A stretch of 64,000 nucleotides of DNA, taken from assembly GCF_058153355.1 (NCBI RefSeq), contig NZ_CM177019.1; one strand, given 5' to 3'. The notes under the pieces are model-generated. The model ran no database searches, was not told the origin of the DNA, and saw only the letters and a list, made by a program, of their open reading frames with translations. Positions 1 to 15,991 of the stretch are shown in pieces (position 1 is the stretch's first letter; every line of letters starts with the position of its first letter). The position numbers and the translations under genes are program-made.

Positions 1-2313
1 ATGGCCGTTAAAGCCTCCGGGCGTTTTGTCCCTCCGTCAGCATTTGCTGCAGGCACCGGTAAGGCGTTTACCGGTGCTTATGCATGGAACGCGCCACGCG
101 AGGCTGTCGGGCGCGAAAGACCCCTTACACGTGACGAGATGCGTCAGGTGCAAGGTGTTTTATCCACGATTAACCGCCTGCCTTACTTTTTGCGCTCGCT
201 GTTTACTTCACGCTATGACTACATCCGGCGCAATAAAAGCCCGGTGCACGGGTTTTATTTCCTCACATCCACTTTTCAGCGTCGTTTATGGCCGCGCATT
301 GAGCGTGTGAATCAGCGCCATGAAATGAACACCGACGCGTCGTTGCTGTTTCTGGCAGAGCGTGACCACTATGCGCGCCTGCCGGGAATGAATGACAAGG
401 AGCTGAAAAAGTTTGCCGCCCGTATCTCATCACAGCTTTTCATGATGTATGAGGAACTCTGCGATGCCTGGGTGGATGCGCATGGCGAGAAAGAATCGCT
501 GTTTACGGATGAGGCGCAGGCTCACCTCTATGGTCATGTTGCTGGCGCTGCACGTGCTTTCAATATTTCCCCGCTCTACTGGAAAAAATACCGTAAAGGA
601 CAGATGACCACGAGGCAGGCATATTCTGCCATTGCCCGCCTGTTTAACGATGAGTGGTGGACTCATCAGCTTAAAGGCCAGCGTATGCGCTGGCATGAGG
701 CGTTACTGATTGCTGTCGGGGAGGTCAATAAAGACCGTTCTCCTTATGCCAGTAAACATGCCATTCGTGATGTGCGTGCGCGCCGCCAGGCAAATCTGGA
801 ATTTCTTAAATCGTGTGACCTTGAAAACAGGGAAACCGGCGAACGCATCGACCTTATCAGTAAGGTGATGGGCAGTATTTCTAATCCTGAAATTCGCCGG
901 ATGGAGCTGATGAACACCATTGCCGGTATTGAGCGTTACGCCGCCGCAGAGGGTGATGTGGGGATGTTTATCACGCTGACCGCGCCGTCAAAGTATCACC
1001 CGACACGTCAGGTCGGAAAAGGCGAAAGTAAAACCGTCCAGCTAAATCACGGCTGGAATGATGAGGCATTTAATCCAAAGGATGCTCAGCGTTATCTCTG
1101 CCGCATCTGGAGCCTGATGCGCACGGCATTCAAGGATAATGATTTACAGGCCTACGGTTTGCGAGTCGTCGAGCCACACCACGACGGAACGCCGCACTGG
1201 CATATGATGCTTTTTTGTAATCCACGCCAGCGTAACCAGATTATTGAAATCATGCGTCGCTACGCGCTCAAAGAGGATGGCGACGAAAGAGGAGCCGCGC
1301 GAAACCGTTTTCAGGCGAAACACCTTAACCGGGGCGGTGCTGCGGGGTATATCGCGAAATACATCTCAAAAAATATCGACGGATATGCACTGGATGGTCA
1401 GCTCGATAATGATACCGGCAGACCGCTGAAAGACACTGCCGCGGCTGTTACCGCATGGGCGTCAACGTGGCGCATCCCGCAATTTAAAACGGTTGGTCTG
1501 CCGACAATGGGGGCTTACCGTGAACTACGCAAATTGCCTCGCGGCGTCAGCATTGCTGATGAGTTTGACGAGCGCGTCGAGGCTGCACGCGCCGCCGCAG
1601 ACAGTGGTGATTTTGCGTTGTATATCAGCGCGCAGGGTGGGGCAAATGTCCCGCGCGATTGTCAGACTGTCAGGGTCGCCCGTAGCCCGTCGGATGACGT
1701 TAACGAGTATGAGGAAGAAGTCGAGAGAGTGGTCGGCATTTACGCGCCGCATCTCGGCGCGCGTCATATTCATATCACCAGAACGACGGACTGGCGCATT
1801 GTTCCGAAAGTGCCGGTCTTTGAGCCTTTGACTTTAAAAAGCGGCATCGCCGCGCCTCGGAGTCCTGTCAATAACTGTGGAAAGCCTGCCAGCAGTGATA
1901 CTTCGTTACCGGCTCCCACACCTTCTGAACATGCCGCAGCAGTGCTTAATCTGGTAGATGACGGTGTTATCGAATGGAGTGACCCGGAGGTTGTGAGGGC
2001 GCTCAGGGATGCATTAAAACACGGCCTGAAAACACCAAATCGTCAGCAAAGAAACGGAAGCCCGTTAAAACTACATGAAATAGCACCGTCGGCCAGACTG
2101 ACCAGGTCGGAACGAATGCAAATCACCCGTATCCGCGTTGACCTTGTTCAGAATGGTATCAGGCCTCAGCGATGGGAGCTTGAGGCGTTGGTTCGAGGAG
2201 CGAGAGTAAATTATGGTGATATGTCATTCAAATTTCCAATTGATGATCGATTTTATGATGATGTTAACTCTTTGAATTTATGGAGTATTGAGTCTCGTGT
2301 GAACTTCACATAA
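1..2313 (+). CDS. A: Phage replication initiation protein gpA (rolling-circle HUH endonuclease)
   Basis: 770-aa ORF; HxH motif (PHWHMML) and catalytic Tyr region (GYIAKYISKN); position before the A-cos cargo region as in P2. Last ~100 nt are AT-rich like the downstream cargo. Confidence 0.9.
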   Translation: MAVKASGRFVPPSAFAAGTGKAFTGAYAWNAPREAVGRERPLTRDEMRQVQGVLSTINRLPYFLRSLFTSRYDYIRRNKSPVHGFYFLTSTFQRRLWPRIERVNQRHEMNTDASLLFLAERDHYARLPGMNDKELKKFAARISSQLFMMYEELCDAWVDAHGEKESLFTDEAQAHLYGHVAGAARAFNISPLYWKKYRKGQMTTRQAYSAIARLFNDEWWTHQLKGQRMRWHEALLIAVGEVNKDRSPYASKHAIRDVRARRQANLEFLKSCDLENRETGERIDLISKVMGSISNPEIRRMELMNTIAGIERYAAAEGDVGMFITLTAPSKYHPTRQVGKGESKTVQLNHGWNDEAFNPKDAQRYLCRIWSLMRTAFKDNDLQAYGLRVVEPHHDGTPHWHMMLFCNPRQRNQIIEIMRRYALKEDGDERGAARNRFQAKHLNRGGAAGYIAKYISKNIDGYALDGQLDNDTGRPLKDTAAAVTAWASTWRIPQFKTVGLPTMGAYRELRKLPRGVSIADEFDERVEAARAAADSGDFALYISAQGGANVPRDCQTVRVARSPSDDVNEYEEEVERVVGIYAPHLGARHIHITRTTDWRIVPKVPVFEPLTLKSGIAAPRSPVNNCGKPASSDTSLPAPTPSEHAAAVLNLVDDGVIEWSDPEVVRALRDALKHGLKTPNRQQRNGSPLKLHEIAPSARLTRSERMQITRIRVDLVQNGIRPQRWELEALVRGARVNYGDMSFKFPIDDRFYDDVNSLNLWSIESRVNFT

Positions 2314-2367
2314 TATGGGGCCGTTGTAGGTGTTTGAATAATCAGACTTCAATTCAAAGGGATAATT

Positions 2368-3615
2368 ATGGTTATTTATCAAGGTGGTAAGATAATATCT
2401 GAAGATGATTTTTATTCTCATCTTTATTCGTTATGTCAGTTGGATAATGTAGGGGTTCTTTTAGGCGCGGGAGCATCGGTCGGATGTGGCGGCCAAACTA
2501 TGAAGCAGGTATGGCAGTTTTTTAAATATGAACATCCTGATCTATTGAATTTGTTACTAGAAAAATACTTATTGGTTGACAAAACTGAATCTGAACAAGA
2601 TATAGTTAATGTTGAGCTTCTAATTGATGAAGTAACTAAATTCTTGTCTGTGGCCAAAACAAGACGTAATGAAGACGAACAAAAAGAAATTAGTTTAATA
2701 TTAAGTGCTTTGTATAAACAAGTAACAAAGGCTGCATTGTTAACTGGAGAAGAGTTTGGTTGTAAAAATCAAGGGAAGAAAAAACAGTTTAAGTCTCATA
2801 AAGAATTAATTTCAAAGTTGATTTCAAATAGGCAGCCGGGACAATCGGCTCCGGCACTTTTTACTACCAACTATGATTTGGCATTAGAGTGGGCAGCTGA
2901 AGATTTAGGAATTCAGCTATTTAATGGTTTTTCAGGATTGCATACAAGACAATTTTATCCTCAAAATTTTGATTTGGCATTTAGAAATGTCAATGCAAAA
3001 GGGGAGGCTAGATTTGGTCATTATCACGCTTATCTATATAAATTGCATGGCTCTCTTACATGGTATCAGGATGATTTTTTAATAGTTAATGAGATAAGTG
3101 CATCTCAGGCATATGATAATTACATTAAAAATATTATTAATGGTGACGGTTTTTACTATGGTCAACATTTAATTTATCCGGGGGCTAATAAATATAGCCA
3201 TACAATTGGTTTTGTTTACGGTGAAATGTTTAGACGTTTTGGCGAGTTTTTGTCAAAACCTCAAACCGCTTTGTTTATTAATGGGTTTGGGTTTGGTGAT
3301 TATCATATAAACAGAATTGTTTTTGGTGCTTTGTTAAATCCGTCATTTCATGTTGTTATTTATTACCCTGATCTGGAGAATGCTTTAGATAAAGTTAGTA
3401 GAGGCGTTGCTTCTGAAGGTGAAAAGGCAATTGATGCTTTAAAAAATATGCAATTCAATCAAGTGACTATCGTGGGTGGGGGGGCAGATGCTTACTTTGA
3501 TAGTTTTGTGAAACATCTTCCTTATCCGGTGTTGTTCCCAAGAGAAAATACTGTTGATGACTTGGTTGAAGCTATTTCTAAATTGTCTAAAGGGGAAGGG
3601 AATGTCGCATTTTAA
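2368..3615 (+). CDS. SIR2-family (sirtuin-like, putative NAD+-consuming) protein, candidate defense effector
   Basis: 415 aa, AT-rich gene. Gly-rich dinucleotide-binding-like motif GAGASVGCGG (nt 2464-2493), TTNYD motif (nt 2863-2877), LHGS with candidate catalytic His (nt 3046-3048), matching SIR2_2-type signatures from memory. SD-like aagggataatt upstream. Confidence 0.7.
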   Translation: MVIYQGGKIISEDDFYSHLYSLCQLDNVGVLLGAGASVGCGGQTMKQVWQFFKYEHPDLLNLLLEKYLLVDKTESEQDIVNVELLIDEVTKFLSVAKTRRNEDEQKEISLILSALYKQVTKAALLTGEEFGCKNQGKKKQFKSHKELISKLISNRQPGQSAPALFTTNYDLALEWAAEDLGIQLFNGFSGLHTRQFYPQNFDLAFRNVNAKGEARFGHYHAYLYKLHGSLTWYQDDFLIVNEISASQAYDNYIKNIINGDGFYYGQHLIYPGANKYSHTIGFVYGEMFRRFGEFLSKPQTALFINGFGFGDYHINRIVFGALLNPSFHVVIYYPDLENALDKVSRGVASEGEKAIDALKNMQFNQVTIVGGGADAYFDSFVKHLPYPVLFPRENTVDDLVEAISKLSKGEGNVAF

Positions 3616-5422
3616 ACTATCTGAATTATCTGCTATTGGGTATGTCGTTGGTCTGGAGGGCGAAAAAATAAGGATAAATCTTCATGAAGGATTGCAAGGT
3701 AGGCTCGCCTCTCATAGGGATGGTGTTAGTTCTGTTACTCAGCCTGGAGATTTGATCGGTTTTGATGCCGGAAATATTCTGGTTGTGGCTCGAGTTACAG
3801 ATATGGCATTTGTCGAGGCTGATAAAGCACATAAGGCAAAAATAGGTACATCAGATATAGCAGATATGCCGTTAAGGCAAATAATAGCCTATGCAATAGG
3901 TTTTATTAGACGAGATATAGATGGATGTGTGTTTGTTTCGGAAGACTGGAGGTTACCTGCTCTGGGAGCATCCGCTGTCCCGTTAACATCTGATTTTTTA
4001 AATATCGTATATAGTATTGATAAAAATGATCTGGATAAAGCAATTGAGTTAGGAATAGATTCGAGGACTAAATCAGTTAAAATTTTAGCTAGCATTGATA
4101 AATTACTAACCAGGCATATGGCTGTTTTGGGCAGTACTGGATATGGTAAATCTAATTTTAATGCTTTACTTACACGCCGCATTTCAGAACAGTACCCTAA
4201 TGCAAGAATAGTAATTTTTGATATTAATGGCGAGTATTCTCAGGCTTTTGAAGGTGTTGCTAATGTTAAACATACTATTTTAGGTGAGTTACCAAAAGGA
4301 GAGTTTCCAAAACCACCTCTACAGAAAGGAGATATATTTTCTGAGAATGAACATTACTACTATAGAAAAATACCTTATCAAGCATTGGGATTTGCTGGGT
4401 TGATAAAATTACTACGCCCTAGTGATAAGACACAATTACCTGCATTAAGAAATGCGCTTAATGCTATAAATAGTGTTCATTTTTCCGATGATTCATTCTT
4501 TCTTAAGGATGAAGTAGGGGGCGTATTTAATATTTTTGATGATTGTAGAGATGAAGGGCAAGAGCTTTTATCTGCGTGGTTGAGTTTCTTAAGAAGAGGG
4601 ATGCTGTGTAAGGCAAATAAATGGCCGCCGTTTAAAAGTATTGCTAACTTGGTTGCGGAGTTTGGTTGCGTGGCGGCGGATTCGCGAAAAGCTGGATCTA
4701 GTAAACGAGATGCTTTTAGCTATGGTAATGTTCTGCCATTGATTAAGATAATTCAACAGTTATCAGAGGATTCTAGATTCAAGTATGTTGTTGATTTAAA
4801 TGGAGGTGGTGAATTATTAAGTGATGGCAAACATTGGGAATTAGCTATGAGACAGGAAGTTGATTATTTCTTTGGTAAAGAAAAGGGAGAGGAGAATGAC
4901 TGGAATATTCATATTGTTAATTTTAAGCATCTTTCACAAGATCATGCTCCAATGCTGTTAAGTGCATTATTAGAAATGTTTGCTGAAGTTCTCTTTCTTA
5001 GGGGGCAAAACAAAGCTTTTCCAACCGTGTTACTTCTTGAAGAGGCGCACCACTATTTAAGAGATCCTTATTCTGAAGTTGATGCACAAATTAAAGCTTA
5101 TGAAAGACTTGCTAAAGAAGGGCGTAAATTTAAATGTTCACTTATTGTGAGCACACAACGACCATCAGAGCTTTCATCAACAGTATTAGCAATGTGTGCA
5201 AATTGGTTTTCGTTGCGCCTGACAAATGAGCGTGATTTGCAGACTTTACGGTATGCGATGGAAAGTGGAAATGAGTTAATGATTCGGCAGATTTCTGGGC
5301 TTCCAAGAGGAGATGCAATAGCGTTTGGTGCTGCTTTTAATATACCCGTAAGAATTTCAATTCACCCTGCTGTACCCGGTCCGAGATCGTCTGACGCAAG
5401 TTATTCTCAAGAATGGCGATAA
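3602..5422 (+). CDS. HerA/FtsK-like P-loop ATPase, partner of the SIR2 protein
   Basis: About 606 aa from the ATG at 3602 (SD aggggaaggg just upstream; the track ORF starts at 3554). Walker A GSTGYGKS (nt 4130-4153), Walker B-like VLLLEEAHHY (about nt 5029-5058), STQRPSEL motif typical of HerA/VirB4-class ATPases. Start overlaps the SIR2 stop by 14 nt. Confidence 0.7.
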   Translation: MSHFKLSELSAIGYVVGLEGEKIRINLHEGLQGRLASHRDGVSSVTQPGDLIGFDAGNILVVARVTDMAFVEADKAHKAKIGTSDIADMPLRQIIAYAIGFIRRDIDGCVFVSEDWRLPALGASAVPLTSDFLNIVYSIDKNDLDKAIELGIDSRTKSVKILASIDKLLTRHMAVLGSTGYGKSNFNALLTRRISEQYPNARIVIFDINGEYSQAFEGVANVKHTILGELPKGEFPKPPLQKGDIFSENEHYYYRKIPYQALGFAGLIKLLRPSDKTQLPALRNALNAINSVHFSDDSFFLKDEVGGVFNIFDDCRDEGQELLSAWLSFLRRGMLCKANKWPPFKSIANLVAEFGCVAADSRKAGSSKRDAFSYGNVLPLIKIIQQLSEDSRFKYVVDLNGGGELLSDGKHWELAMRQEVDYFFGKEKGEENDWNIHIVNFKHLSQDHAPMLLSALLEMFAEVLFLRGQNKAFPTVLLLEEAHHYLRDPYSEVDAQIKAYERLAKEGRKFKCSLIVSTQRPSELSSTVLAMCANWFSLRLTNERDLQTLRYAMESGNELMIRQISGLPRGDAIAFGAAFNIPVRISIHPAVPGPRSSDASYSQEWR

Positions 5423-5576
5423 TCTTGTGGGAGAATGTAATAGGATAACGATAAGTGCATCTATCTGCATTAATTCGAATAAGGTTGAGAGGAGTTCAAA
5501 AACAAATTTAGACCGGCATTAGAGTGATTTAGATAGACATATGCAACTGCATTAAAACCGCCCCATGAAGCGGGCG

Positions 5577-5595
5577 GGCGAGGCGGGGAAAGCAC
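5577..5595. other. cos: Phage cos site (19-nt cohesive-end sequence)
   Basis: ggcgaggcggggaaagcac matches the P2 cohesive end as I recall it; lies next to the Q/P packaging genes as expected. Confidence 0.6.
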
Positions 5596-5737
5596 TGCGC
5601 GCTGGCGGTGGTGCTGATTTTATTTTTTCAGCGTCTGAGCGCGTCGTGATGGCGTTTAGATTGTTAGCCGGGGCGTTGGTGTGTCTGCGGGCTGTTTTGT
5701 GCGGTGGTGAGCGTGTGAGGGCGTGATGGCGGGGTGT

Positions 5738-5759
5738 AAAAAAGCCGCCCGCAGGCGGC
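5738..5759 (-). terminator. Rho-independent terminator downstream of Q
   Basis: On the minus strand: GC hairpin gccgcc-tgcg-ggcggc followed by a T-run, just past the Q stop. Confidence 0.55.
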
Positions 5760-5764
5760 GATGT

Positions 5765-6799
5765 TCAGCCGTTGTCAGTGTCCAGTGAGTAGTTTTTAAA
5801 GCGGATGACCTCCTGACCGAGCCAGCCGTTTATCTCGCGGATCCTGTCCTGTAACGGGATAAGCTCATTGCGGACAAAGACCTTTGCCACTTTCTCAATA
5901 TCACCCAGCGACCCGACGTTCTCCGGCTTGCCGCCCATCAACTGAAAGGGGATGCGGTGCGCGTCCAGCAGGTCAGCGGCGCTGGCTTTTTTGATATTAA
6001 AAAAATCGTCCTTCGTTGCCACTTCACTGAGCGGGATAATTTTAATGCCGTCAGCTTTCCCCTGCGGGGCATAGAGAAACAGGTTTTTAAAGTTGTTGCG
6101 GCCTTTCGACTTCACCATGTTTTCGCGAAGCATTTCGATATCGTTGCGATCCTGCACGGCATCGGTAACGTACATGATGTATCCGGCATGAGCGCCGTTT
6201 TCGTAATACTTGCGGCGGAACAGCGTGGCTGACTCATTCAGCCAGGCAGAGTTAAGGGCGCTGAGATATTCCGGCAGGCCGTACAGCTCCTGATTAATAT
6301 CCGGCTCCAGCAGATGAAACACGGAGCCAGGTGCGAAGGCTGTCGGCTCGTTGAAGGAAGGCACCCACCAGTAAACATCCTCCTCCACGCCACGGCGGGT
6401 ATATTTTGCCGGTGAGGTTTCCAGTCTGATGACCTTGCCGGTGGTGCTGTAACGCTTTTCCAGAAACGCATTGCCGAACACCAGAAAATCCAGCACAAAG
6501 CGGCTGAAATCCTGCTGGGAAAGCCACGGATGCGGGATAAATGTCGAGGCCAGAATATTGCGTTTGACGTAAATCGGGGAGCTGTGATGCACGGCAGCAC
6601 GCAGGCTTTTTGCCAGACCGGTAAAGCTGATTGGTGGCTCATACCATCTGCCGTTACTGATGCATTCGACGTAATCCAGAATGTCACGGCGGTCGAGTAC
6701 CGGCACCGGCTCACCAAAGGTGAATGCCTCCATTTTCGGGGCGCTGGCGGTCATTTTTTTTGCCGCAGGTTGCGGTGTTTTCCCTTTTTTCTTGCTCAT
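5765..6799 (-). CDS. Q: Portal protein gpQ
   Basis: 344 aa (P2 Q size); adjacent to cos; start overlaps the P stop (ATGA). Confidence 0.9.
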   Translation of the reverse strand: MSKKKGKTPQPAAKKMTASAPKMEAFTFGEPVPVLDRRDILDYVECISNGRWYEPPISFTGLAKSLRAAVHHSSPIYVKRNILASTFIPHPWLSQQDFSRFVLDFLVFGNAFLEKRYSTTGKVIRLETSPAKYTRRGVEEDVYWWVPSFNEPTAFAPGSVFHLLEPDINQELYGLPEYLSALNSAWLNESATLFRRKYYENGAHAGYIMYVTDAVQDRNDIEMLRENMVKSKGRNNFKNLFLYAPQGKADGIKIIPLSEVATKDDFFNIKKASAADLLDAHRIPFQLMGGKPENVGSLGDIEKVAKVFVRNELIPLQDRIREINGWLGQEVIRFKNYSLDTDNG

Positions 6800-8571
6800 C
6801 AGTAAAACTCCAGAATGGTGGATGTCAGCGGGGTGCTGATACCGGCGGTGAGTGGCTCATTTAACAGGGCGTGCATGGTCGCCCAGGCGAGGTCGGCGTG
6901 GCTGGCTTCCTCGCTGCGGCTGGCCTCATAGGTGGCGCTGCGCCCGCTGCTGGTCATGGTCTTGCGGATAGCCATAAACGAGCTGGTGATGTCGGTGGCG
7001 CTGACGTCGTATTCCAGACAGCCACGGCGGATAACGTCTTTTGCCTTGAGCACCATTGCGGTTTTCATTTCCGGTGTGTAGCGGATATCGCGCGCGGCGG
7101 GATAGAACGAGCGCACGAGCTGGAACACGCCGACACCGAGGCCGGTGGCATCAATACCGATGTATTCGACGTTGTATTTTTCGGTGAGTTTGCGGATGGA
7201 TTCTGCCTGAGTGGCAAAGTCCATGCCTTTCCACTGGTGACGCTCAAGGATCCTGAATTTGCCACCGGCCACCACCGGCGGTGCCAGCACCACGCATCCG
7301 GCGCTGTCGCCACGGTGTGACGGGTCGTAACCAATCCATACCGGACGTGAGCCGAACGGATTGGCGGCAAACGGCGCATAGTCTTCCCATTCTTCCAGCG
7401 TGTCGATCATGCAGCGTTGCAGCTCCTCGAACGGGAACACCGACGCCTTGTCGTCAACAAATTCACACATGAACAGGTTTTTAAAATCGTCGGCGCTGTT
7501 TTCGCGTTTGAGCTGCTCAATGTCGAACAGCGTGCAGCCGCCTTTCAGGGCGTCCTCAATGGTGACAATCTGCCGCCACTGGCCGTCCGCACAGAGAAGC
7601 CCACCGGCAAGGGCGTTATGACTGACGTCGATTTCCACGCGTTCAGCGGCGCTGGCGCGTCCCCGGTTAAACAGTTCACCCGACCAGAACGGGTAGGCGT
7701 CGTGCGCCAGCGTGGACGGGGTGGAGAAATAGGTCGAGCGCAGGTGACTCTGTGAGGCCATACCTGATGCCACCTTACGCAGTACCTGAAAATTCGGGAT
7801 CCAGAAAATCTCGTCGACGTACAGGTCGCCGTTATGGCTCTGTGCGGTGTTGGAGTTGGTGCCGAGAAAAATCAGTTTTGCGCCGTTATTGCCCAGGACA
7901 ATCGGGTCACCGGTCAGGTCAACGTCAACCAGCCGGGCAAAGGCGATGATGTATTCACGGAACACATACGCCTGCGTTTTACTGGCCGACAGAAAAATCT
8001 GGTTATGACCGGTTTTCAGGGCGCGCAGCAGCGCCTCGCGGGAAAAATAAAACGTCGCGCCAATCTGGCGGGATTTCAGGATATCGCGGATGCGGTGCTC
8101 AAGCCCGGCGCGATACCAGTGCAACTGATATTCGAAAGACTGCTCAAAGAAAATCTGCTCCAGCTTTTCGATGGCCTCGTCACTGAAAAAATTCTTTTTC
8201 GGTTTGCGACGCCCGCCTTTGTTGCGGTTAGCGACGTTCGGATTAAGGTCTGCCTCGTTGCCGGTCTGACTGTAACGGTTGACCCGTGCCAGTCGTTCAA
8301 TCTGGCGTCCGAGCAGGTCAATTTCCTTGAAGTCACCGCCGGTTTTCTGCGGTTTGATGATGAGCTGGGTCAGCCGCGCTTCCAGACTCATTTCGACACG
8401 GCTGATGGGGGCAACGCTGTCCCAGCCGTCGCGCTGTTTCCAGCTCTGCACCGTCGGGCGTTTCATCTGCAACATGGCGGCAATCTGCGGCACGGAAAAC
8501 CCCTGCCAGTACAGCAGCGCCGCCTGACGACGCGGGTCGTGTAAAAGAGTGGTGTCTGTGGTGATGGTCAT
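6799..8571 (-). CDS. P: Terminase large subunit (ATPase) gpP
   Basis: About 590 aa from the ATG at 8571 (SD gaggt); P2 synteny, divergent from O. Confidence 0.88.
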   Translation of the reverse strand: MTITTDTTLLHDPRRQAALLYWQGFSVPQIAAMLQMKRPTVQSWKQRDGWDSVAPISRVEMSLEARLTQLIIKPQKTGGDFKEIDLLGRQIERLARVNRYSQTGNEADLNPNVANRNKGGRRKPKKNFFSDEAIEKLEQIFFEQSFEYQLHWYRAGLEHRIRDILKSRQIGATFYFSREALLRALKTGHNQIFLSASKTQAYVFREYIIAFARLVDVDLTGDPIVLGNNGAKLIFLGTNSNTAQSHNGDLYVDEIFWIPNFQVLRKVASGMASQSHLRSTYFSTPSTLAHDAYPFWSGELFNRGRASAAERVEIDVSHNALAGGLLCADGQWRQIVTIEDALKGGCTLFDIEQLKRENSADDFKNLFMCEFVDDKASVFPFEELQRCMIDTLEEWEDYAPFAANPFGSRPVWIGYDPSHRGDSAGCVVLAPPVVAGGKFRILERHQWKGMDFATQAESIRKLTEKYNVEYIGIDATGLGVGVFQLVRSFYPAARDIRYTPEMKTAMVLKAKDVIRRGCLEYDVSATDITSSFMAIRKTMTSSGRSATYEASRSEEASHADLAWATMHALLNEPLTAGISTPLTSTILEFY

Positions 8572-8744
8572 GAATACCTCGCCGTGATGAATACACGGCA
8601 AGGCTACTGAGTCGCGCCCCGCGATTCGCTAAGGTGCTGTTGTGTCAGTGATAAGCCATCCGGGACTGATGGCGGAGGATGCGCATCGTCGGGAAACTGA
8701 TGCCGACATGTGACTCCTCTAATCACTATTCAGGACTCCTGACA

Positions 8745-9599
8745 ATGGCAAAAAAAGCATCAAAATTCTTTCGTATCGGCGTTGAGGGTGACACCTGTGA
8801 CGGGCGTGTCATCAGTGCGCAGGATATTCAGGAAATGGCCGAAACCTTTGACCCGCGAGTCTATGGTTGCCGCATTAACCTGGAACATCTGCGCGGCATC
8901 CTGCCTGACGGTATTTTTAAGCGTTATGGTGATGTGGTCGAACTGAAGGCCGAAAAGATTGACGATGATTCGGCGCTGAAAGGCAAATGGGCGCTGTTTG
9001 CGAAAATCACCCCGACCGATGACCTTATCGCGATGAACAAGGCCGCGCAGAAGGTCTATACCTCAATGGAAATTCAGCCGAACTTTGCCAATACAGGCAA
9101 ATGTTATCTGGTGGGTCTGGCCGTCACCGATGACCCGGCAAGCCTCGGCACGGAATACCTGGAATTCTGCCGCACGGCAAAACACAACCCTCTGAACCGC
9201 TTCAAATTAAGCCCTGAAAACCTGATTTCAGTGGCAACGCCTGTTGAGCTGGAATTTGAAGACCTGCCTGAAACCGTGTTCACAGCCCTGACCGAAAAGG
9301 TGAAATCCATTTTTGGCCGCAAACAGGCCAGCGATGACGCCCGTCTGAATGACGTGCATGAAGCGGTGACCGCTGTCGCTGAGCATGTGCAGGAAAAACT
9401 GAGCGCCACTGAGCAGCGCCTTGCTGAGATGGAAACCGCCTTTTCCGCACTTAAGCAGGATGTGACTGACAGGGCGGATGAAACCAGTCAGGCATTCACC
9501 CGCCTGAAAAACAGTCTCGACCACACCGAAAGTCTGACCCAGCAGCGCCGCAGCAAAGCCACCGGCGGTGGCGGTGACGCCCTGATGACGAACTGCTGA
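8745..9599 (+). CDS. O: Capsid scaffold protein gpO
   Basis: 284 aa from MAKKASKFF (track ORF starts at 8679); P2 size and position. Confidence 0.85.
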   Translation: MAKKASKFFRIGVEGDTCDGRVISAQDIQEMAETFDPRVYGCRINLEHLRGILPDGIFKRYGDVVELKAEKIDDDSALKGKWALFAKITPTDDLIAMNKAAQKVYTSMEIQPNFANTGKCYLVGLAVTDDPASLGTEYLEFCRTAKHNPLNRFKLSPENLISVATPVELEFEDLPETVFTALTEKVKSIFGRKQASDDARLNDVHEAVTAVAEHVQEKLSATEQRLAEMETAFSALKQDVTDRADETSQAFTRLKNSLDHTESLTQQRRSKATGGGGDALMTNC

Positions 9600-9657
9600 C
9601 CGGCGTCAGTCAGTCCGGGAAAACCTTCACGATTAACTCTTAATTTCAGGAAAAACT

Positions 9658-10731
9658 ATGCGCCAGGAAACCCGCTTTAAATTTAATGCCTACCTGTCCC
9701 GTGTTGCCGAACTGAACGGCATCGACGCCGGTGATGTGTCGAAAAAATTCACCGTTGAACCGTCGGTCACCCAGACCCTGATGAACACCATGCAGGAGTC
9801 CTCTGACTTTCTGACCCGCATCAACATTGTGCCGGTCAGCGAAATGAAAGGGGAAAAAATTGGTATTGGTGTCACCGGCTCCATCGCCAGCACCACCGAC
9901 ACCGCCGGTGGCACCGAGCGTCAGCCGAAGGACTTCTCGAAGCTGGCGTCCAACAAGTACGAATGCGACCAGGTTAACTTCGATTTTTATATCCGCTACA
10001 AAACGCTGGACCTGTGGGCGCGTTATCAGGATTTCCAGCTCCGTATCCGTAACGCCATTATCAAACGCCAGTCCCTTGATTTCATCATGGCCGGTTTTAA
10101 CGGCGTGAAGCGTGCCGAAACCTCTGACCGCAACAGTAATCCGATGCTGCAGGATGTGGCGGTCGGCTGGCTGCAGAAATACCGCAATGAAGCCCCGGCG
10201 CGCGTGATGAGCAAGGTCACTGACGAGGAAGGCCGCACCACCTCTGAGGTTATCCGCGTGGGTAAGGGCGGTGATTATGCCAGCCTTGATGCACTGGTGA
10301 TGGATGCGACCAACAACCTGATTGAACCGTGGTATCAGGAAGACCCTGACCTTGTGGTGATTGTGGGGCGTCAGCTACTGGCGGACAAGTATTTTCCCAT
10401 CGTCAACAAGGAGCAGGACAACAGCGAAATGCTGGCCGCTGACGTCATCATCAGCCAGAAACGCATCGGCAACCTGCCGGCGGTACGCGTCCCGTACTTC
10501 CCGGCGGATGCGATGCTCATCACGAAGCTGGAAAACCTGTCCATCTACTACATGGATGACAGCCATCGCCGCGTGATTGAGGAAAACCCGAAACTCGACC
10601 GCGTGGAGAACTACGAGTCAATGAACATTGATTACGTGGTGGAGGACTACGCCGCCGGTTGTCTGGTGGAAAAAATTAAAGTCGGTGATTTCTCCACACC
10701 GGCTAAAGCGACCGCAGAGCCGGGAGCGTAA
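9658..10731 (+). CDS. N: Major capsid protein gpN
   Basis: 357 aa; P2 size and position. Confidence 0.9.
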   Translation: MRQETRFKFNAYLSRVAELNGIDAGDVSKKFTVEPSVTQTLMNTMQESSDFLTRINIVPVSEMKGEKIGIGVTGSIASTTDTAGGTERQPKDFSKLASNKYECDQVNFDFYIRYKTLDLWARYQDFQLRIRNAIIKRQSLDFIMAGFNGVKRAETSDRNSNPMLQDVAVGWLQKYRNEAPARVMSKVTDEEGRTTSEVIRVGKGGDYASLDALVMDATNNLIEPWYQEDPDLVVIVGRQLLADKYFPIVNKEQDNSEMLAADVIISQKRIGNLPAVRVPYFPADAMLITKLENLSIYYMDDSHRRVIEENPKLDRVENYESMNIDYVVEDYAAGCLVEKIKVGDFSTPAKATAEPGA

Positions 10732-10734
10732 CCG

Positions 10735-11478
10735 ATGACGAGTCCCGCACAGCGCCACATGATGCGGGTCTCGGCAGCGATGACCGCGCAGCGGGAAGCC
10801 GCCCCGCTGCGACATGCAACTGTCTATGAGCAGATGCTGGTCAAGCTGGCCGCAGACCAGCGCACACTGAAAGCGATTTACTCAAAAGAGCTTAAGGCCG
10901 CGAAAAAACGCGAACTGCTGCCGTTCTGGTTGCCGTGGGTGAACGGCGTGCTGGAGCAGGGCAAAGGTGCACAGGATGACATTCTGATGACGGTCATGCT
11001 GTGGCGTCTGGATACCGGCGATATTGCCGGTGCGCTGGAGATTGCCCGTTATGCCCTGAAGTACGGTCTGACCATGCCGGGTAAACACCGCCGCACCCCG
11101 CCGTACATGTTCACCGAGGAGGTGGCGCTTGCGGCCATGCGCGCTCACGCTGCCGGTGAGTCTGTGGATCCCCGCCTGCTGATGGACACCCTCGAACTGA
11201 CCGCCACGGCTGACATGCCTGATGAAGTGCGCGCAAAACTGCACAAAATCACCGGTCTGTTTCTGCGTGACGCTGGTGATGCCGCAGGGGCGCTGGCTCA
11301 CCTGCAACGTGCGACACAGCTCGACTGTCAGGCAGGCGTCAAAAAAGAGATTGAACGACTGGAGCGGGAGCTGAAACCGAAGCCGGAGCCGCAGCCCAAA
11401 GCGGCCACCCGTACCCCGCGTAAGACCCGGAGCGTGACACCGGCAAAACGTGGACGCCCTAAAAAGAAAGCCAGTTAA
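10735..11478 (+). CDS. M: Terminase small (endonuclease) subunit gpM
   Basis: 247 aa, basic C-terminus; P2 synteny. Confidence 0.85.
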   Translation: MTSPAQRHMMRVSAAMTAQREAAPLRHATVYEQMLVKLAADQRTLKAIYSKELKAAKKRELLPFWLPWVNGVLEQGKGAQDDILMTVMLWRLDTGDIAGALEIARYALKYGLTMPGKHRRTPPYMFTEEVALAAMRAHAAGESVDPRLLMDTLELTATADMPDEVRAKLHKITGLFLRDAGDAAGALAHLQRATQLDCQAGVKKEIERLERELKPKPEPQPKAATRTPRKTRSVTPAKRGRPKKKAS

Positions 11479-11577
11479 CAACCGAATGCGCCCCGCGCCA
11501 GGGCGGCACGCCGGTCAGTGAGGGTGAATCACCTGACACTGCACCGGCGTCCACCGCCCGACTTTTCAGAGGTAGTC

Positions 11578-12087
11578 ATGATGACGCTGATTATTCCGCG
11601 AAAGGAGGCTCCCGTGTCCGGTGAGGGTACGGTGGTCATCCCGCAACCGGCAGGCGACGAGCCGGTGATTAAAAACACGTTCTTTTTTCCCGATATCGAC
11701 CCGAAGCGTGTCAGGGAACGTATGCGCCTTGAGCAGACCGTCGCCCCCGCCCGCCTGCGTGAGGCCATCAAGTCAGGCATGGCGGAAACGAATGCGGAGC
11801 TGTACGAGTACCGCGAACAGAAAATTGCCGCCGGTTTTACGCGTCTGGCGGACGTTCCGGCGGACGACATCGACGGTGAAAGCATCAAAGTTTTTTACTA
11901 CGAGCGCGCTGTGTGTGCGATGGCGACCGCGTCGCTTTATGAGCGTTACCGCGGCGTGGATGCCAGTGCGAAAGGCGACAAGAAGGCCGACAGCATTGAC
12001 AGCACCATTGATGAGCTGTGGCGGGATATGCGCTGGGCGGTGGCGCGCATCCAGGACAAGCCGCGCTGCATCGTGAGTCAAATCTGA
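11578..12087 (+). CDS. L: Head completion protein gpL
   Basis: 169 aa from MMTLIIPRKE (track ORF starts at 11518); P2 size. Confidence 0.8.
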   Translation: MMTLIIPRKEAPVSGEGTVVIPQPAGDEPVIKNTFFFPDIDPKRVRERMRLEQTVAPARLREAIKSGMAETNAELYEYREQKIAAGFTRLADVPADDIDGESIKVFYYERAVCAMATASLYERYRGVDASAKGDKKADSIDSTIDELWRDMRWAVARIQDKPRCIVSQI

Positions 12088-12290
12088 TGAAGACCTTTGC
12101 GCTACAGGGCGACACGCTCGACGCCATCTGTGTCCGGTATTACGGGCGCACTGAGGGCGTGGTCGAAGCCGTGCTCGCCGCAAATCCGGGACTGGCTGAA
12201 CTGGGCGCGGTGCTGCCGCACGGCACCGCCGTCGAACTGCCCGACGTTCAGACCGCGCCCGTGGCTGAAACTGTCAATCTGTGGGAGTAA
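12087..12290 (+). CDS. X: Tail protein gpX (LysM-like)
   Basis: 67 aa from MKTFALQGDTLDAICVRYYG; P2 size and position. Confidence 0.75.
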   Translation: MKTFALQGDTLDAICVRYYGRTEGVVEAVLAANPGLAELGAVLPHGTAVELPDVQTAPVAETVNLWE

Positions 12291-12293
12291 CGC

Positions 12294-12575
12294 ATGACAG
12301 CAGAAGAAAAAAGCGTCCTGTCGCTTTTCATGATTGGGGTGCTGATTGTTGTCGGCAAGGTGCTTGCCGGTGGTGAACCCATCACCCCGCGTCTGTTTAT
12401 CGGGCGCATGTTGCTCGGTGGTTTTGTCTCGATGGTTGCCGGTGTTGTTCTGGTGCAGTTTCCTGACCTGTCACTGCCTGCGGTGTGCGGCATCGGCTCC
12501 ATGCTGGGTATCGCCGGTTATCAGGTGATTGAGATTGCCATTCAGCGCCGCTTTAAGGGCAGGGGGAAACAGTAA
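12294..12575 (+). CDS. Y: Holin gpY
   Basis: 93 aa with hydrophobic transmembrane segments; first gene of the lysis cassette. Confidence 0.8.
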   Translation: MTAEEKSVLSLFMIGVLIVVGKVLAGGEPITPRLFIGRMLLGGFVSMVAGVVLVQFPDLSLPAVCGIGSMLGIAGYQVIEIAIQRRFKGRGKQ

Positions 12576-13072
12576 TGCCGGTAATTAACACGCATCAGAA
12601 TATCGCCGCCTTTCTCGACATGCTGGCCGTGTCCGAAGGGACGGCGAATCATCCGCTGACGAAAAACCGGGGCTATGACGTGATAGTCACCGGACTGGAC
12701 GGAAAGCCGGAAATTTTCACCGACTACAGTGACCACCCGTTCGCACATGGCCGACCGGCGAAGGTGTTTAACCGTCGCGGTGAAAAATCCACGGCCTCCG
12801 GTCGCTATCAGCAGCTTTACCTGTTCTGGCCGCACTACCGCAAACAGCTTGCCCTGCCGGATTTCAGTCCGTTGTCACAGGACAGACTTGCCATTCAGTT
12901 GATCCGCGAACGCGGTGCACTGGATGACATCCGGGCGGGACGTATTGAGCGCGCCATTTCACGCTGTCGCAATATCTGGGCGTCCCTGCCGGGTGCCGGT
13001 TACGGTCAGCGTGAGCATTCACTGGAAAAACTGGTCACCGTCTGGCGTACCGCCGGCGGCGTACCGGCTTAA
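12575..13072 (+). CDS. K: Endolysin gpK (lysozyme family)
   Basis: 165 aa; lambda R-like lysozyme signature (SEGT...GYDV); P2 position. Confidence 0.85.
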   Translation: MPVINTHQNIAAFLDMLAVSEGTANHPLTKNRGYDVIVTGLDGKPEIFTDYSDHPFAHGRPAKVFNRRGEKSTASGRYQQLYLFWPHYRKQLALPDFSPLSQDRLAIQLIRERGALDDIRAGRIERAISRCRNIWASLPGAGYGQREHSLEKLVTVWRTAGGVPA

Positions 13073-13086
13073 ACGGAGTAAACACC

Positions 13087-13512
13087 ATGAAGAAATTATC
13101 CCTTTCACTGATGCTGAACGTGTCGCTGGCGCTGATGCTGGCACTGTTCCTGATTTACCCGCAGAGCGTGGCCGTCAGTTTTGTCGCCACCTGGGCGATT
13201 CTGGCGACGGTTATCTGTGTGGTTGCCGGTGGTGTCGGCGTGTATGCCACTGAGTATGTACTTGAACGCTACGGGCGGGAGCTGCCGCCGGAATCGCTGG
13301 CCGTGAAGATTGTCACGTCGCTGTTTTTGCAGCCGGTGCCGTGGCGCAGACGGGCGGCGGCTCTGGTGGTGATGGTGGCGACATTTATCTCGCTGGTCGC
13401 CGCCGGGTGGATTTTTACCGCGCTGATTTACCTCGTGGCGTCGGTGTTCTTCTGGCTGATACGTACGGCCTGCCGTCAGCGTTTTGAGGGGCGGGAGCTA
13501 TGTCAAGGCTGA
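13087..13512 (+). CDS. lysA: Lysis timing membrane protein LysA
   Basis: 141 aa, multiple hydrophobic helices; P2 position. Confidence 0.7.
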   Translation: MKKLSLSLMLNVSLALMLALFLIYPQSVAVSFVATWAILATVICVVAGGVGVYATEYVLERYGRELPPESLAVKIVTSLFLQPVPWRRRAAALVVMVATFISLVAAGWIFTALIYLVASVFFWLIRTACRQRFEGRELCQG

Positions 13513-13925
13513 TGATTGTACTGATTGTGTTGTTATCGCTGGCGTTGGCGGGTCTGTTTCTGGTGAAACACAAAAATGCCAGCCTGCGCGCTTCGCTGGA
13601 CAGGGCGAACAGCGTCGCCAGCGGGCAGCAGACGACCATCACCATGCTGAAAAATCAGCTTCATGTTGCGCTCACCAGGGCAGACAAAAACGAGCTGGCG
13701 CAGGTGGCACTGCGTCAGGAACTGGAGAACGCCGCGAAGCGTGAAGCACAGCGCGAGAAAACCATCACGAGGTTACTCAATGAAAACGAAGATTTTCGCC
13801 GCTGGTACGGTGCTGACCTGCCTGATGCTGTGCGCCGGTTGCACCAGCGCCCGGCCTGCACTGACGCCAGTGATTGTCCCCAACGCCTGCCCGAAAGTGA
13901 GTCTTTGCCCGATGCCGGGCAGTGA
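13500..13925 (+). CDS. lysB: Rz-like spanin LysB
   Basis: 141 aa, N-terminal TM then coiled-coil-like region; P2 position. Confidence 0.75.
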   Translation: MSRLMIVLIVLLSLALAGLFLVKHKNASLRASLDRANSVASGQQTTITMLKNQLHVALTRADKNELAQVALRQELENAAKREAQREKTITRLLNENEDFRRWYGADLPDAVRRLHQRPACTDASDCPQRLPESESLPDAGQ

Positions 13926-14070
13926 CCCGGAGACGAACGGCGATTTAAGTGCCGATATCCGGCAGCTTGAGAACGCGCTGGCACGCTGTGCCAGCCAGGT
14001 AAAAATGATTAAACACTGTCAGGACGAAAACGATGCTCAAACCCGACAGCCTGCGCAGGGCGCTGACTGA
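13780..14070 (+). CDS. lysC: Rz1-like outer-membrane lipoprotein spanin LysC, out of frame, start embedded in lysB
   Basis: 96 aa from MKTKIFAAGTVLTCLMLCAGCTS (lipobox LCAGC), Pro-rich; start lies within lysB in another frame, as in P2. Confidence 0.65.
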   Translation: MKTKIFAAGTVLTCLMLCAGCTSARPALTPVIVPNACPKVSLCPMPGSDPETNGDLSADIRQLENALARCASQVKMIKHCQDENDAQTRQPAQGAD

Positions 14071-14500
14071 TGCCGTCACGGTGTTGAAAACTAACCCCGA
14101 TATGCTGCGGATATTCGTGGATAACGGGAGTATTGCCTCCACACTGGCGGCGTCGTTGTCATTCGAAAAGCGTTACACGCTCAATGTCATTGTGACCGAC
14201 TTTACCGGTGATTTTGACCTGCTCATCGTGCCGGTGCTGGCGTGGCTGCGGGAAAATCAGCCCGACATCATGACCACCGACGAAGGCCAGAAAAAGGGCT
14301 TCACGTTTTATGCGGACATCAACAATGACAGCAGCTTTGATATCAGTATCAGCCTGATGCTGACCGAGCGCACGCTGGTCAGTGAGGTTGACGGCGCGTT
14401 GTATGTGAAGAATATCCCGGAACCCACGCCGCCGGAGCCCGTCACCCGCCCGATGGAGCTTTATATCAATGGCGAACTGGTGAGCAAGTGGGATGAATGA
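14033..14500 (+). CDS. R: Tail completion protein gpR
   Basis: 155 aa; P2 size and position. Confidence 0.8.
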   Translation: MLKPDSLRRALTDAVTVLKTNPDMLRIFVDNGSIASTLAASLSFEKRYTLNVIVTDFTGDFDLLIVPVLAWLRENQPDIMTTDEGQKKGFTFYADINNDSSFDISISLMLTERTLVSEVDGALYVKNIPEPTPPEPVTRPMELYINGELVSKWDE

Positions 14501-14945
14501 GTTTAAGCGTTTTGAAGACCGGCTGACCGGACTTATTGAATCGCTGTCACCGTCAGGGCGTCGGCGACTGAGTGCCGAACTGGCGAAACGTCTGCGGCAG
14601 AGTCAGCAGCGTCGGGTGATGGCACAGAAAGCCCCGGACGGCACCCCCTACGTGCCACGCCAGCAGCAGAGCGCCAGAAAAAAGACCGGTCGCGTTAAGC
14701 GAAAAATGTTTGCGAAACTTATCACCAGTCGTTTTTTGCATATCCGCGCCAGCCCGGAACAGGCATCAATGGAGTTTTACGGCGGGAAGTCACCGAAAAT
14801 CGCCAGTGTGCATCAGTTCGGTCTGTCGGAAGAAAACCGGAAAGACGGTAAGAAAATTGATTATCCGGCGCGTCCCCTGCTCGGCTTTACCGGTGAGGAT
14901 GTGCAGATGATTGAAGAGATTATCCTGGCTCACCTCGACCGTTAG
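14493..14945 (+). CDS. S: Tail completion protein gpS
   Basis: 150 aa; P2 size and position. Confidence 0.8.
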   Translation: MNEFKRFEDRLTGLIESLSPSGRRRLSAELAKRLRQSQQRRVMAQKAPDGTPYVPRQQQSARKKTGRVKRKMFAKLITSRFLHIRASPEQASMEFYGGKSPKIASVHQFGLSEENRKDGKKIDYPARPLLGFTGEDVQMIEEIILAHLDR

Positions 14946-15011
14946 TTGTGCCATTCCCGACACCTCATCGTCACATTGCCGCCGGTATGACCCGGCGGCA
15001 TCCTTCCCGTT

Positions 15012-15647: not shown

Positions 15648-15991
15648 CAGCGCGTTATCTCGGAATGAATCGCAGTGATGGCCTGACTGTCACTGACCTT
15701 GAGCATATCAGCCAGAGTATCGGCGATATCCTGCGTACGCCGGTCGGCTCGCGGGTGATGCGTCGTGATTACGGCTCGTTGCTGGCATCAATGATTGACC
15801 AGCCGCAGACCCCGGCGCTTGAGTTGCAGATTAAGGTTGCCTGTTACATGGCCGTGCTGAAATGGGAACCCCGCGTCACCCTGGCATCCGTCACCACGGC
15901 GCGCAGCTTTGACGGTCGAATGACAGTTACGTTAACCGGCCAGCATAACGACACCGGCCAGCCACTTTCGTTAACCATCCCTGTGAGTTGA
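15644..15991 (+). CDS. W: Baseplate protein gpW (GPW/gp25 lysozyme-like family)
   Basis: 115 aa; start overlaps the V stop. Confidence 0.85.
   Translation: MTARYLGMNRSDGLTVTDLEHISQSIGDILRTPVGSRVMRRDYGSLLASMIDQPQTPALELQIKVACYMAVLKWEPRVTLASVTTARSFDGRMTVTLTGQHNDTGQPLSLTIPVS

What the first reader, a model, noticed from the sequence alone, without database searches (positions are those of the whole stretch)
2205..5576. AT-rich SIR2 + HerA-like two-gene cargo in the prophage A-cos hotspot: candidate anti-phage system
Directly after replication gene A and before cos, where P2 carries tin/old, sit two translationally coupled genes (stop/start overlap at 3602-3615) whose composition is much more AT-rich than the phage backbone. 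Gene 1 has SIR2-type motifs (GAGASVGCGG, TTNYD, LHGS); gene 2 has HerA-type Walker A/B and STQRP motifs. This architecture matches the SIR2-HerA class of NAD+-depleting defense systems, and the A-cos interval is a known cargo hotspot of P2-like phages. The composition shift already begins in the last ~100 nt of A, so the recombination junction probably lies inside the A 3' end. Whether this variant is a described subtype cannot be judged without a search.
Basis: partly seen in the sequence, partly recalled or inferred. Interest (0 to 1): 0.75.

Follow-up and report, generated by a model that had tools for sequence, protein, structure and literature searches.

The report
Known SIR2-HerA defence cassette in P2 prophage

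Summary
A 3.3-kb AT-rich segment (window 2216-5547, GC 0.36 against 0.54-0.56 in the backbone) lies between P2-type gene A and cos (5577-5595). It carries SIR2 (2368-3615, 415 aa) and HerA (3602-5422, 606 aa), which overlap by 14 nt.

Both proteins give full-length top hits to the PADLOC SIR2 and HerA models (3e-188 and 6.5e-272). They are collinear with the solved E. coli SIR2-HerA complex (8J4U/8SU9; SIR2 81% identical). The NADase residues N168 and H227 and the HerA Walker A lysine K183 are present.

Identical DNA occurs in several complete E. coli genomes. Rousset et al. 2022 list "SIR2 | DUF87 = SIR2+HerA (Gao 2020)" as system 14 of the P2 gpA-gpQ hotspot, with 188 occurrences. The solved allele itself sits at the same position in P2-like viral contigs.

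Modest additions from this work:
- The left junction is inside A, at 2215/2216.
- The AT-rich A tail travels with the cassette across divergent P2-like backbones.
- A CATAAT hexamer about 54 nt upstream of SIR2 is conserved and may be the cassette's own promoter. This is inferred only.

Verdict: interpretation supported, already known, low interest.

The parts
1..2313 (+). P2-type replication gene A (770 aa). Positions 1-2215 are backbone.
   Evidence: 96.3% nt identity to P2 A over 1-2215. RefSeq calls it 'replication endonuclease' in the identical locus. The window starts exactly at the ATG of A, so the int-C-cox-B arm of the prophage lies outside the window.
1834..1883 (+). P2 origin of replication (nick site near 1859) inside A
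   Evidence: The 50 nt around the P2 nick site (P2 position 29892) are identical in the window.
2216..2313 (+). AT-rich replacement tail of A (aa 739-770, NYGDMSFKFPIDDRFYDDVNSLNLWSIESRVNFT), linked to the cassette
   Evidence: Homology to P2 ends at 2215. The DNA of 2216-2367 is found only in the 14 E. coli genomes that carry this SIR2-HerA allele. Related tails (DDFxDDxNSLNxW) occur upstream of SIR2-HerA in divergent P2-like contigs. An element pattern found 7 P2-like loci in IMG/VR and all 7 have SIR2-HerA downstream.
2216..5547 (+). Whole cargo segment (GC 0.363) between the backbone junctions
2262..2316 (+). Conserved upstream element with TTGAAT (2273-2278) and a CATAAT -10-like hexamer (2309-2314). 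It is a candidate promoter for the cassette (weak -35, TTGAGT at 2288-2293). Inferred only.
   Evidence: Alignment of 11 alleles: the hexamers are kept even where the element is non-coding (L002, L014, L020). CATAAT lies 53-55 nt upstream of the SIR2 ATG in 9 of 11 alleles. The generic scan found no + strand promoter at its threshold.
2368..3615 (+). SIR2 NADase effector gene (415 aa) with N168 and H227 active-site residues
   Evidence: PADLOC PDLC02186 3.2e-188. NCBIfam SIR2_antiphage 499.2 bits. Pfam SIR2_2. PDB 8j4u_A full length at 6e-231, 81% identity. Active-site residues as.
3602..5422 (+). HerA ATPase/helicase gene (606 aa): Walker A GSTGYGKS (K183), Walker B LLLEEAH, STQRP
   Evidence: PADLOC PDLC02185 6.5e-272. 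NCBIfam HerA_antiphage 701.5 bits. Pfam DUF87. PDB 8j4u_M residues 1-605, 1071 bits. The 14-nt overlap with SIR2 is kept in all 10 alleles examined.
5577..5595 (+). cos (19-nt P2 cohesive end); backbone homology resumes at 5548
   Evidence: Alignment to P2 cosR. Sequence read directly.
5765..6799 (-). Portal gene Q, right border of the gpA-gpQ hotspot
   Evidence: All late genes from Q to ogr (5765-27997) are intact.

Best explanation
Window 2368-5422 is an intact two-gene SIR2-HerA (Nezha) anti-phage operon. It is carried as lysogenic-conversion cargo in the gpA-cos-gpQ hotspot of a complete-looking P2-like prophage.

Shown here: family membership, catalytic motifs, full-length collinearity with the solved E. 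coli complex, cargo status, and cassette boundaries.

Inferred from the published homologues:
- The two proteins assemble into a large complex (12 SIR2 and 6 HerA in E. coli).
- HerA binding licenses the SIR2 NADase.
- On infection by a foreign phage the complex hydrolyses NAD+ to ADP-ribose and nicotinamide, which starves the phage and stops infection.
- The HerA ATPase/helicase activity and an ATP-inhibited SIR2 nuclease activity probably contribute.

Also inferred: in the lysogen the operon is probably transcribed from its own weak promoter inside the AT-rich A tail (the -10-like CATAAT at 2309-2314). SIR2 and HerA are probably translated in a coupled way through the 14-nt overlap. The infection signal is not established in the sources I read.

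The cassette appears to move between P2-like phages by recombination within the 3' end of A on the left and near cos on the right.
For: Family hits: PADLOC SIR2 3.2e-188 and HerA 6.5e-272, both full length. NCBIfam SIR2_antiphage and HerA_antiphage are the top hits. Pfam SIR2_2 and DUF87.

Solved structures: PDB 8j4u/8su9, SIR2 1-415 and HerA 1-605; SIR2 is 81% identical.

Catalytic residues: N168, H227, K183 and Walker B are present. N168A or H227A, or herA deletion, abolish defence in the V. cholerae homologue, which has the same numbering (PMC11559045).

Biochemistry of homologues: complex formation activates the NADase, nuclease, ATPase and helicase activities, including in the E. coli system (PMC11472057). 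NAD+ depletion on infection and the phage counter-pathway NARP1 are described.

Cargo status and known location. Rousset 2022 Table S5B row 14 lists 188 occurrences in the P2 hotspot. Seventeen IMG/VR loci were found: 14 show the full A - SIR2 - HerA - Q order, two are cut short by a contig end, and the most divergent (L021) has no Q hit. The SIR2 of L016 and L017 is identical to the PDB chain, and L016 HerA is identical over the 602 residues compared.

Integrity: both ORFs are intact and the same DNA is present in at least 10 genomes at 99.7% identity or more.
Against: This particular allele (81% SIR2 and 77% HerA identity to the allele matching the solved structure) has not been tested. No expression data exist. 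The promoter is a weak consensus match (8 of 12), below the scan threshold. NCBIfam scores fall just under the curated cut-offs (499.2 against 500; 701.5 against 800), but a HerA identical to the solved chain over the 602 residues compared also scores only 710.3, so the cut-off is not informative. The relative weight of NAD+ depletion and DNA attack is debated in the literature.
Confidence: 0.88

Rival explanations
1. It is the same SIR2-HerA system, but protection comes mainly from attack on phage DNA (HerA helicase/translocase plus the SIR2-associated nuclease) rather than from NAD+ depletion.
For: The NAR 2024 study reports ssDNA-preferring nuclease activity of SIR2 in the complex and helicase activity of HerA, also for the E. 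coli proteins. The mBio paper cites multiple mechanisms proposed by Tang et al. and Shen et al..
Against: Point mutations of the NADase site alone (N168A, H227A) abolish defence in homologues. Phage NAD+-reconstitution pathways overcome SIR2-HerA. ATP inhibits the nuclease in vitro.
Confidence: 0.08
2. The cassette is silent or non-functional baggage in this prophage. It may not be expressed in the lysogen because the upstream early operon is repressed and there is no real promoter, or the allele may be inactive.
For: No + strand promoter reached the scan threshold between A and SIR2. The candidate promoter matches only 8 of 12 positions. There are no expression data.
Against: Both ORFs are intact with all catalytic motifs. 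The gene lengths (415-416 aa; 603-610 aa) and the 14-nt overlap are conserved across 10 alleles that have diverged to 69-84% identity, with catalytic blocks 92-100% identical in pairwise comparison. That pattern indicates purifying selection. The upstream element is conserved even where it is non-coding.
Confidence: 0.03
3. It is not a defence system but a HerA-based DNA-processing module (like HerA-NurA end resection) that serves P2 replication or packaging next to ori and cos.
For: HerA proteins work with NurA in DNA end resection. The genes lie between ori and cos.
Against: There is no NurA gene and the partner is a SIR2 NADase. The archaeal repair HerA models score far lower (92 and 88 bits against 701 for the anti-phage model). 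The pair is absent from P2 and most P2-like phages, so it cannot be a backbone function.
Confidence: 0.01

Closest known systems
E. coli SIR2-HerA / Nezha (PDB 8J4U, 8SU9, 8SUB, 8SUW, 8SXX, 8UAE, 8UAF; Shen et al. 2023 and Tang et al. 2023, Mol Cell; system first reported by Gao et al. 2020)
   Same: Same two-gene order and same protein lengths (415 aa; 606 against 610 aa). Full-length collinear alignment. The same N168/H227 and Walker A/B residues, and a conserved SIR2 C-terminus. Same genomic position: the allele matching the solved structure also lies between A and cos/Q of P2-like contigs.
   Different: The allele is diverged: 81% identity for SIR2 and 77% for HerA. Differences are concentrated in HerA residues 226-250, 301-348 and 399-423 and in SIR2 residues 50-74 and 325-349. 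The left junction also differs: here A keeps a full-length, cassette-linked tail, whereas in the solved-allele loci homology to the window's A stops at residue 673.
P2 gpA-gpQ hotspot system 14, 'SIR2 | DUF87', of Rousset et al. 2022 (PMC9122126, Table S5B)
   Same: Same hotspot and same domain pair, annotated there as SIR2+HerA (Gao 2020), with 188 occurrences among 18,150 E. coli P2 loci.
   Different: The representative HerA printed in that table begins identically to the window's protein and then follows the residues of the L002-type allele, which is 84% identical to the window's. The window carries a sister allele.
P2 old/tin lysogenic-conversion genes
   Same: Same locus between A and cos. 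Same role as prophage-borne exclusion of other phages.
   Different: The proteins are unrelated. old and tin are on the opposite strand with their own promoter near cos. SIR2-HerA is co-oriented with A.
SIR2-HerA of Paenibacillus sp. 453MF, S. aureus and V. cholerae
   Same: Same architecture and the same activation of the SIR2 NADase by HerA.
   Different: These are distant in sequence: PDB hits 8yhx and 8w9l have E-values of only 1e-15 and 2e-10 for SIR2. Their stoichiometries differ (the Paenibacillus SIR2 switches from a dodecamer to a tetradecamer; the S. aureus SIR2 is a dimer on its own). They are not in P2 prophages.

Membership tests
SIR2-HerA (Nezha) anti-phage system | Two adjacent, co-oriented genes, SIR2 followed by HerA | tested here: met
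   2368-3615 and 3602-5422, both on the + strand, with a 14-nt overlap.
SIR2-HerA (Nezha) anti-phage system | SIR2-type NADase domain with the Asn/His active-site pair | tested here: met
   N168 (TTNYD) and H227 (LHGS). The same residues are named as the active site. Pfam SIR2_2 5e-09. PADLOC SIR2 3e-188.
SIR2-HerA (Nezha) anti-phage system | HerA/FtsK-type P-loop ATPase with Walker A and Walker B motifs | tested here: met
   GSTGYGKS 177-184 and LLLEEAH 477-483. Pfam DUF87 2e-21. PADLOC HerA 6.5e-272.
SIR2-HerA (Nezha) anti-phage system | Full-length homology to an experimentally characterised member | tested here: met
   PDB 8j4u_A residues 1-415 (770 bits, 81% identity) and 8j4u_M residues 1-605 (1071 bits).
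SIR2-HerA (Nezha) anti-phage system | NCBIfam equivalog cut-offs (NF042942 at 500 bits; NF042943 at 800 bits) | tested here: inconclusive
   The window scores 499.2 and 701.5 bits, both below the cut-offs. Proteins of L016, whose SIR2 is identical to the solved chain and whose HerA is identical over the 602 residues compared, score 507.2 and only 710.3. The HerA cut-off therefore excludes that HerA too and is not a biological criterion.
SIR2-HerA (Nezha) anti-phage system | Phage protection, NAD+ depletion on infection, and assembly of the SIR2-HerA complex | not testable with these tools
   These need cloning, plaque assays, NAD+ measurement and biochemistry.
P2-like gpA-gpQ (old/tin) cargo hotspot | Located between replication gene A and cos/portal gene Q | tested here: met
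   A is 1-2313, cos is 5577-5595 and Q is 5765-6799 on the - strand.
P2-like gpA-gpQ (old/tin) cargo hotspot | Content varies between otherwise related phages and has a foreign composition | tested here: met
   The flanks match 2156 complete E. coli genomes but the cargo is in only 23. P2 has orf91/tin/old at this position. GC is 0.36 against 0.54-0.56.
HerA-NurA DNA end-resection module | NurA nuclease partner and a repair-type HerA | tested here: not met
   There is no NurA gene and the partner is SIR2. Repair HerA models score 92 and 88 bits against cut-offs of 800 and 970.
DUF4297-HerA (the other Gao 2020 HerA system) | DUF4297 partner and the HerA_antiphage_2 type of HerA | tested here: not met
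   The partner is SIR2. NF042944 scores only 131 bits and PADLOC PDLC02188 only 2.6e-36.

The most novel reading that the evidence does not exclude
The cassette may be more than 'two genes dropped in a hotspot'. It may be a self-contained exchange module of three parts: (i) its own AT-rich replacement for the last ~30 codons of replication gene A, (ii) a conserved promoter-like element embedded in that tail, and (iii) SIR2-HerA. On this reading it swaps between divergent P2-like phages by homologous recombination within A and at cos. The hypervariable HerA patches (aa 226-250, 301-348, 399-423) would then set which phages each allele recognises.
Probability: 0.3. Interest if true: 0.3.

Novelty: already known. 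Interest (0 to 1): 0.12.

Why it matters
It matters little as a discovery. The system, its structure, its NADase mechanism and its presence in this P2 hotspot are all published, and identical proteins are in RefSeq (WP_000237502.1, WP_000017834.1).

Three practical points follow:
- RefSeq names these proteins only 'SIR2 family protein' and 'ATP-binding protein', because the NCBIfam cut-offs are narrowly missed. A HerA identical to the solved chain over the 602 residues compared also fails the HerA cut-off.
- Several naturally diverged alleles (69-84% identity) sit at one locus. They form a ready-made panel for mapping which parts of HerA or SIR2 determine phage specificity.
- The cassette-linked tail of gene A gives a concrete recombination junction for studying how P2-like phages exchange defence cargo.

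Tried and rejected
1. An anti-Shine-Dalgarno hairpin. The window has a 15-nt inverted repeat (2264-2278 with 2351-2365) that would pair the conserved upstream element with the SIR2 ribosome-binding site. RNAalifold on 7 alleles found no conserved pairs. The single-sequence fold is not unusual (z = -1.73; 11 of 200 shuffles fold as well). Rejected as a conserved regulator.

2. Terminal repeats that would suggest a transposon or integron-type insertion. Only short repeats at chance level were found.

3. The TTGAAT and CATAAT hexamers as one sigma-70 promoter. They are 30-31 nt apart, which is too far. Only CATAAT with a weak -35 fits.

4. Isolated phages carrying the system. tblastn of HerA against 50,697 phage records found nothing at 1e-20 or better, and megablast matched only the flanks. 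Plasmid hits were only 40-44% identical SIR2 proteins in alpha-proteobacteria.

5. Rfam found nothing inside 2205-5576.

6. The Shen et al. 2023 manuscript (PMC11418745) is not held in the library. The E. coli mechanism is therefore cited second-hand.

7. A single-sequence AlphaFold model of the second cargo protein (20569-21096) was too poor to use (pLDDT 40.6).


Full report
**Observation**

The six-frame ORF list shows gene A at 1-2313 (770 aa), a 415-aa ORF at 2368-3615 and a 606-aa ORF from the ATG at 3602 to 5422, all on the + strand. The two cargo ORFs overlap by 14 nt (ATGTCGCATTTTAA, 3602-3615). Each has a purine-rich Shine-Dalgarno sequence upstream.

GC falls from 0.49-0.59 to 0.31-0.43 between about 2100 and 5550. 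Measured over the final boundaries, GC is 0.363 for 2216-5547, against 0.535 for 1-2215 and 0.555 for 5548-20179.

The P2 cohesive-end sequence GGCGAGGCGGGGAAAGCAC lies at 5577-5595.

**What it is**

- PADLOC gives full-length top hits to its SIR2 model (PDLC02186, 3.2e-188) and HerA model (PDLC02185, 6.5e-272).
- In NCBIfam the best families are 'SIR2 family anti-phage-associated protein' (499.2 bits) and 'anti-phage-associated helicase HerA' (701.5 bits).
- Pfam finds SIR2_2 and DUF87.
- Against the PDB, both proteins align end to end with the E. coli SIR2-HerA complex, entries 8J4U, 8SU9, 8SUB, 8SUW, 8SXX, 8UAE and 8UAF. SIR2 is 81% identical.

The NCBIfam scores are just under the curated cut-offs of 500 and 800 bits. 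This explains why RefSeq names the identical proteins only 'SIR2 family protein' and 'ATP-binding protein'. L016 carries the solved allele: its SIR2 is identical to the PDB chain and its HerA is identical over the 602 residues compared. Its proteins score 507.2 and only 710.3 bits. The HerA cut-off therefore says nothing about membership.

**Context**

Window 1-2215 is 96.3% identical to P2 gene A, and the P2 ori nick region is identical. All late genes from Q to ogr (5765-27997) are intact. The prophage ends next to the CyaR sRNA gene.

DNA identical to window 2100-5700 is present in complete E. coli genomes such as PEC395, H5 and H6. Fourteen of 5426 genomes carry this allele at 96.5% identity or more. 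Nine more carry an allele 78% identical in DNA, and the one whose annotation I inspected (H15) also has it between A and Q of a P2-like prophage integrated elsewhere. In contrast, 2156 genomes match only the flanks, and P2 itself has orf91, tin and old at this position. The segment is therefore variable cargo, not backbone.

**Already known**

Rousset et al. [quoted passage not shown] Their Table S5B lists 'SIR2 | DUF87', annotated 'SIR2 + HerA (Gao et al., 2020)', as system 14 with 188 occurrences.

A scan of IMG/VR with the SIR2 protein returned 17 viral loci.
- Fourteen show the full A - SIR2 - HerA - (cos) - Q order.
- Two are cut short by a contig end.
- The most divergent, L021, has an A fragment but no Q hit.
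- The backbones have A proteins only 44-100% identical and Q proteins 75-100% identical to the window's.
- Two of the loci (L016, L017) encode a SIR2 identical to the PDB chain. L016 HerA is identical to the PDB chain over the 602 residues compared.

The structurally characterised E. coli system is thus itself cargo of this hotspot. The window carries a sister allele, 81% (SIR2) and 77% (HerA) identical to it.

**Mechanism**

The mechanism is inferred from the published homologues.
- HerA binding activates the otherwise auto-inhibited SIR2 NADase (PMC11514289, PMC11472057).
[quoted passage not shown] This was also seen for the E. coli proteins, and ATP inhibits the nuclease.
- The Nezha complex has 12 SIR2 and 6 HerA subunits. 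N168A or H227A, or deletion of herA, abolish defence in the V. cholerae homologue, which has the same residue numbering as the window's protein (PMC11559045).
- NAD+ is depleted after infection, and phages with the NARP1 pathway rebuild NAD+ and escape.

The window's proteins keep all of these residues. They also keep the SIR2 C-terminal segment that says is needed for dodecamer assembly in E. coli (alignment).

I therefore commit to NAD+-depleting abortive infection by a SIR2-HerA complex, with helicase and nuclease activity as a possible second arm. The infection signal is not established in the sources I read.

**What this analysis adds**

1. *Left junction.* The left junction is at 2215/2216, inside A. 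The last 32 codons of A are an AT-rich, diverged homologue of the P2 tail (NYGDMSFKFPIDD... against NYDGKKFTYPVADE...).

2. *The A tail travels with the cassette.*
   - Its DNA (2216-2367) occurs only in the 14 genomes that carry this allele.
   - Related tails with the motif DDFxDDxNSLNxW precede SIR2-HerA in divergent backbones (L008, L009, L012, L013, L015, L019).
   - A non-coding relic of the tail persists in loci where the A reading frame ends earlier (L002, L014, L020).
   - A 16-base pattern from the element matched 95 IMG/VR stretches. Of the 80 listed, 7 were P2-like and all 7 had SIR2-HerA downstream. The other 73 had no A, SIR2, HerA or Q homologue and are probably chance matches.
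   - Caveat: the pattern is narrow, and 15 matches were not listed.

3. *Candidate promoter.* Within this element a CATAAT hexamer lies 53-55 nt upstream of the SIR2 ATG in 9 of 11 alleles (window 2309-2314), with only a weak -35. Because the P2 early operon is repressed in a lysogen (established P2 biology, my own knowledge), this is a reasonable candidate for the cassette's own promoter. It is an inference. The generic scan found no + strand promoter at its threshold.

4. *Conserved architecture, patchy variation.* Across 10 alleles the protein lengths (415-416 aa; 603-610 aa) and the 14-nt overlap do not change. Mean pairwise identity is 0.92-1.00 over the catalytic blocks. It falls to 0.40-0.64 in HerA residues 226-250, 301-348 and 399-423, and to about 0.6 in SIR2 residues 50-74 and 325-349. 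These patches are candidates for specificity or arms-race surfaces. That is speculation.

**Rejected ideas**

- A window-specific hairpin pairing the upstream element with the SIR2 ribosome-binding site is neither conserved nor unusually stable.
- No flanking repeats suggest transposition.
- No isolated phage record carries the pair.
- There is no Rfam family in the region.

**Verdict**

The system and its location in this hotspot are already published, and identical proteins are already in RefSeq. Novelty: already known. Interest: low.

Noticed in passing
window 20180-21394 (ORF 20569-21096, + strand): A second AT-rich island (GC 0.35) lies between the tail-fibre assembly gene G and the sheath gene FI, where (from my own knowledge) P2 carries Z/fun. 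It has one 175-aa ORF that matches only phrog_5483 (unknown function, 2.4e-60). There is no Pfam, PADLOC or NCBIfam hit. It contains an R-x4-H motif (RNKISH, aa 98-103) reminiscent of HEPN nucleases. The single-sequence AlphaFold model was all-helical but of poor confidence (pLDDT 40.6), so no fold search was run. It is a possible uncharacterised exclusion gene.
   Followed up: partly
window 29723-31398: About 1.7 kb is present here but absent from E. coli PEC395, between trhP (yegQ) and yegP. It holds two - strand ORFs: 29837-30574 (245 aa) and 30615-31427 (270 aa, with a weak TPR match at 1.6e-3). GC is about 0.45. There are no significant family hits.
   Followed up: partly
window 17969-18439 (inside tail-fibre gene H, 17438-19648): The gene contains tandem 132-nt repeats that encode repeated ...ATPKAVKAAYDLANGKYTAQDATTARKGLVQLSSATNSDSETLA... 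units in the tail-fibre protein.
   Followed up: no
window 28102-28187 (-), 43191-43989 (-), 59984-60022 (+): The CyaR/RyeE sRNA gene lies directly beyond ogr, at the right end of the prophage. Three Sib antitoxin RNAs lie where the related E. coli genome has ibs toxin genes. A JUMPstart element is present. All are ordinary E. coli features.
   Followed up: no
NCBIfam NF042943 / NF042942 (database observation): The curated cut-off of HerA_antiphage (800 bits) excludes even a HerA identical to the solved E. coli chain over the 602 residues compared (710.3 bits). The window's SIR2 misses its cut-off by 0.8 bits. RefSeq therefore labels these defence genes generically as 'ATP-binding protein' and 'SIR2 family protein'.
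   Followed up: yes
window 31399-57512 compared with E. coli PEC395: The chromosomal flank (yegP, baeSR, mdtABCD, yegI, dgcE, asmA) is only 94-97% identical to strain PEC395, while the prophage is 98.8-100% identical. The same prophage and cassette therefore sit in a rather divergent host background, which is consistent with horizontal spread.
   Followed up: no
window 1: The window begins exactly at the ATG of gene A. One complete E. coli record (NZ_CP151009.1) has the same region at the same coordinates (2100-5700). The source record therefore probably starts at this gene, and the int-C-cox-B arm of the prophage lies outside the window.
   Followed up: no
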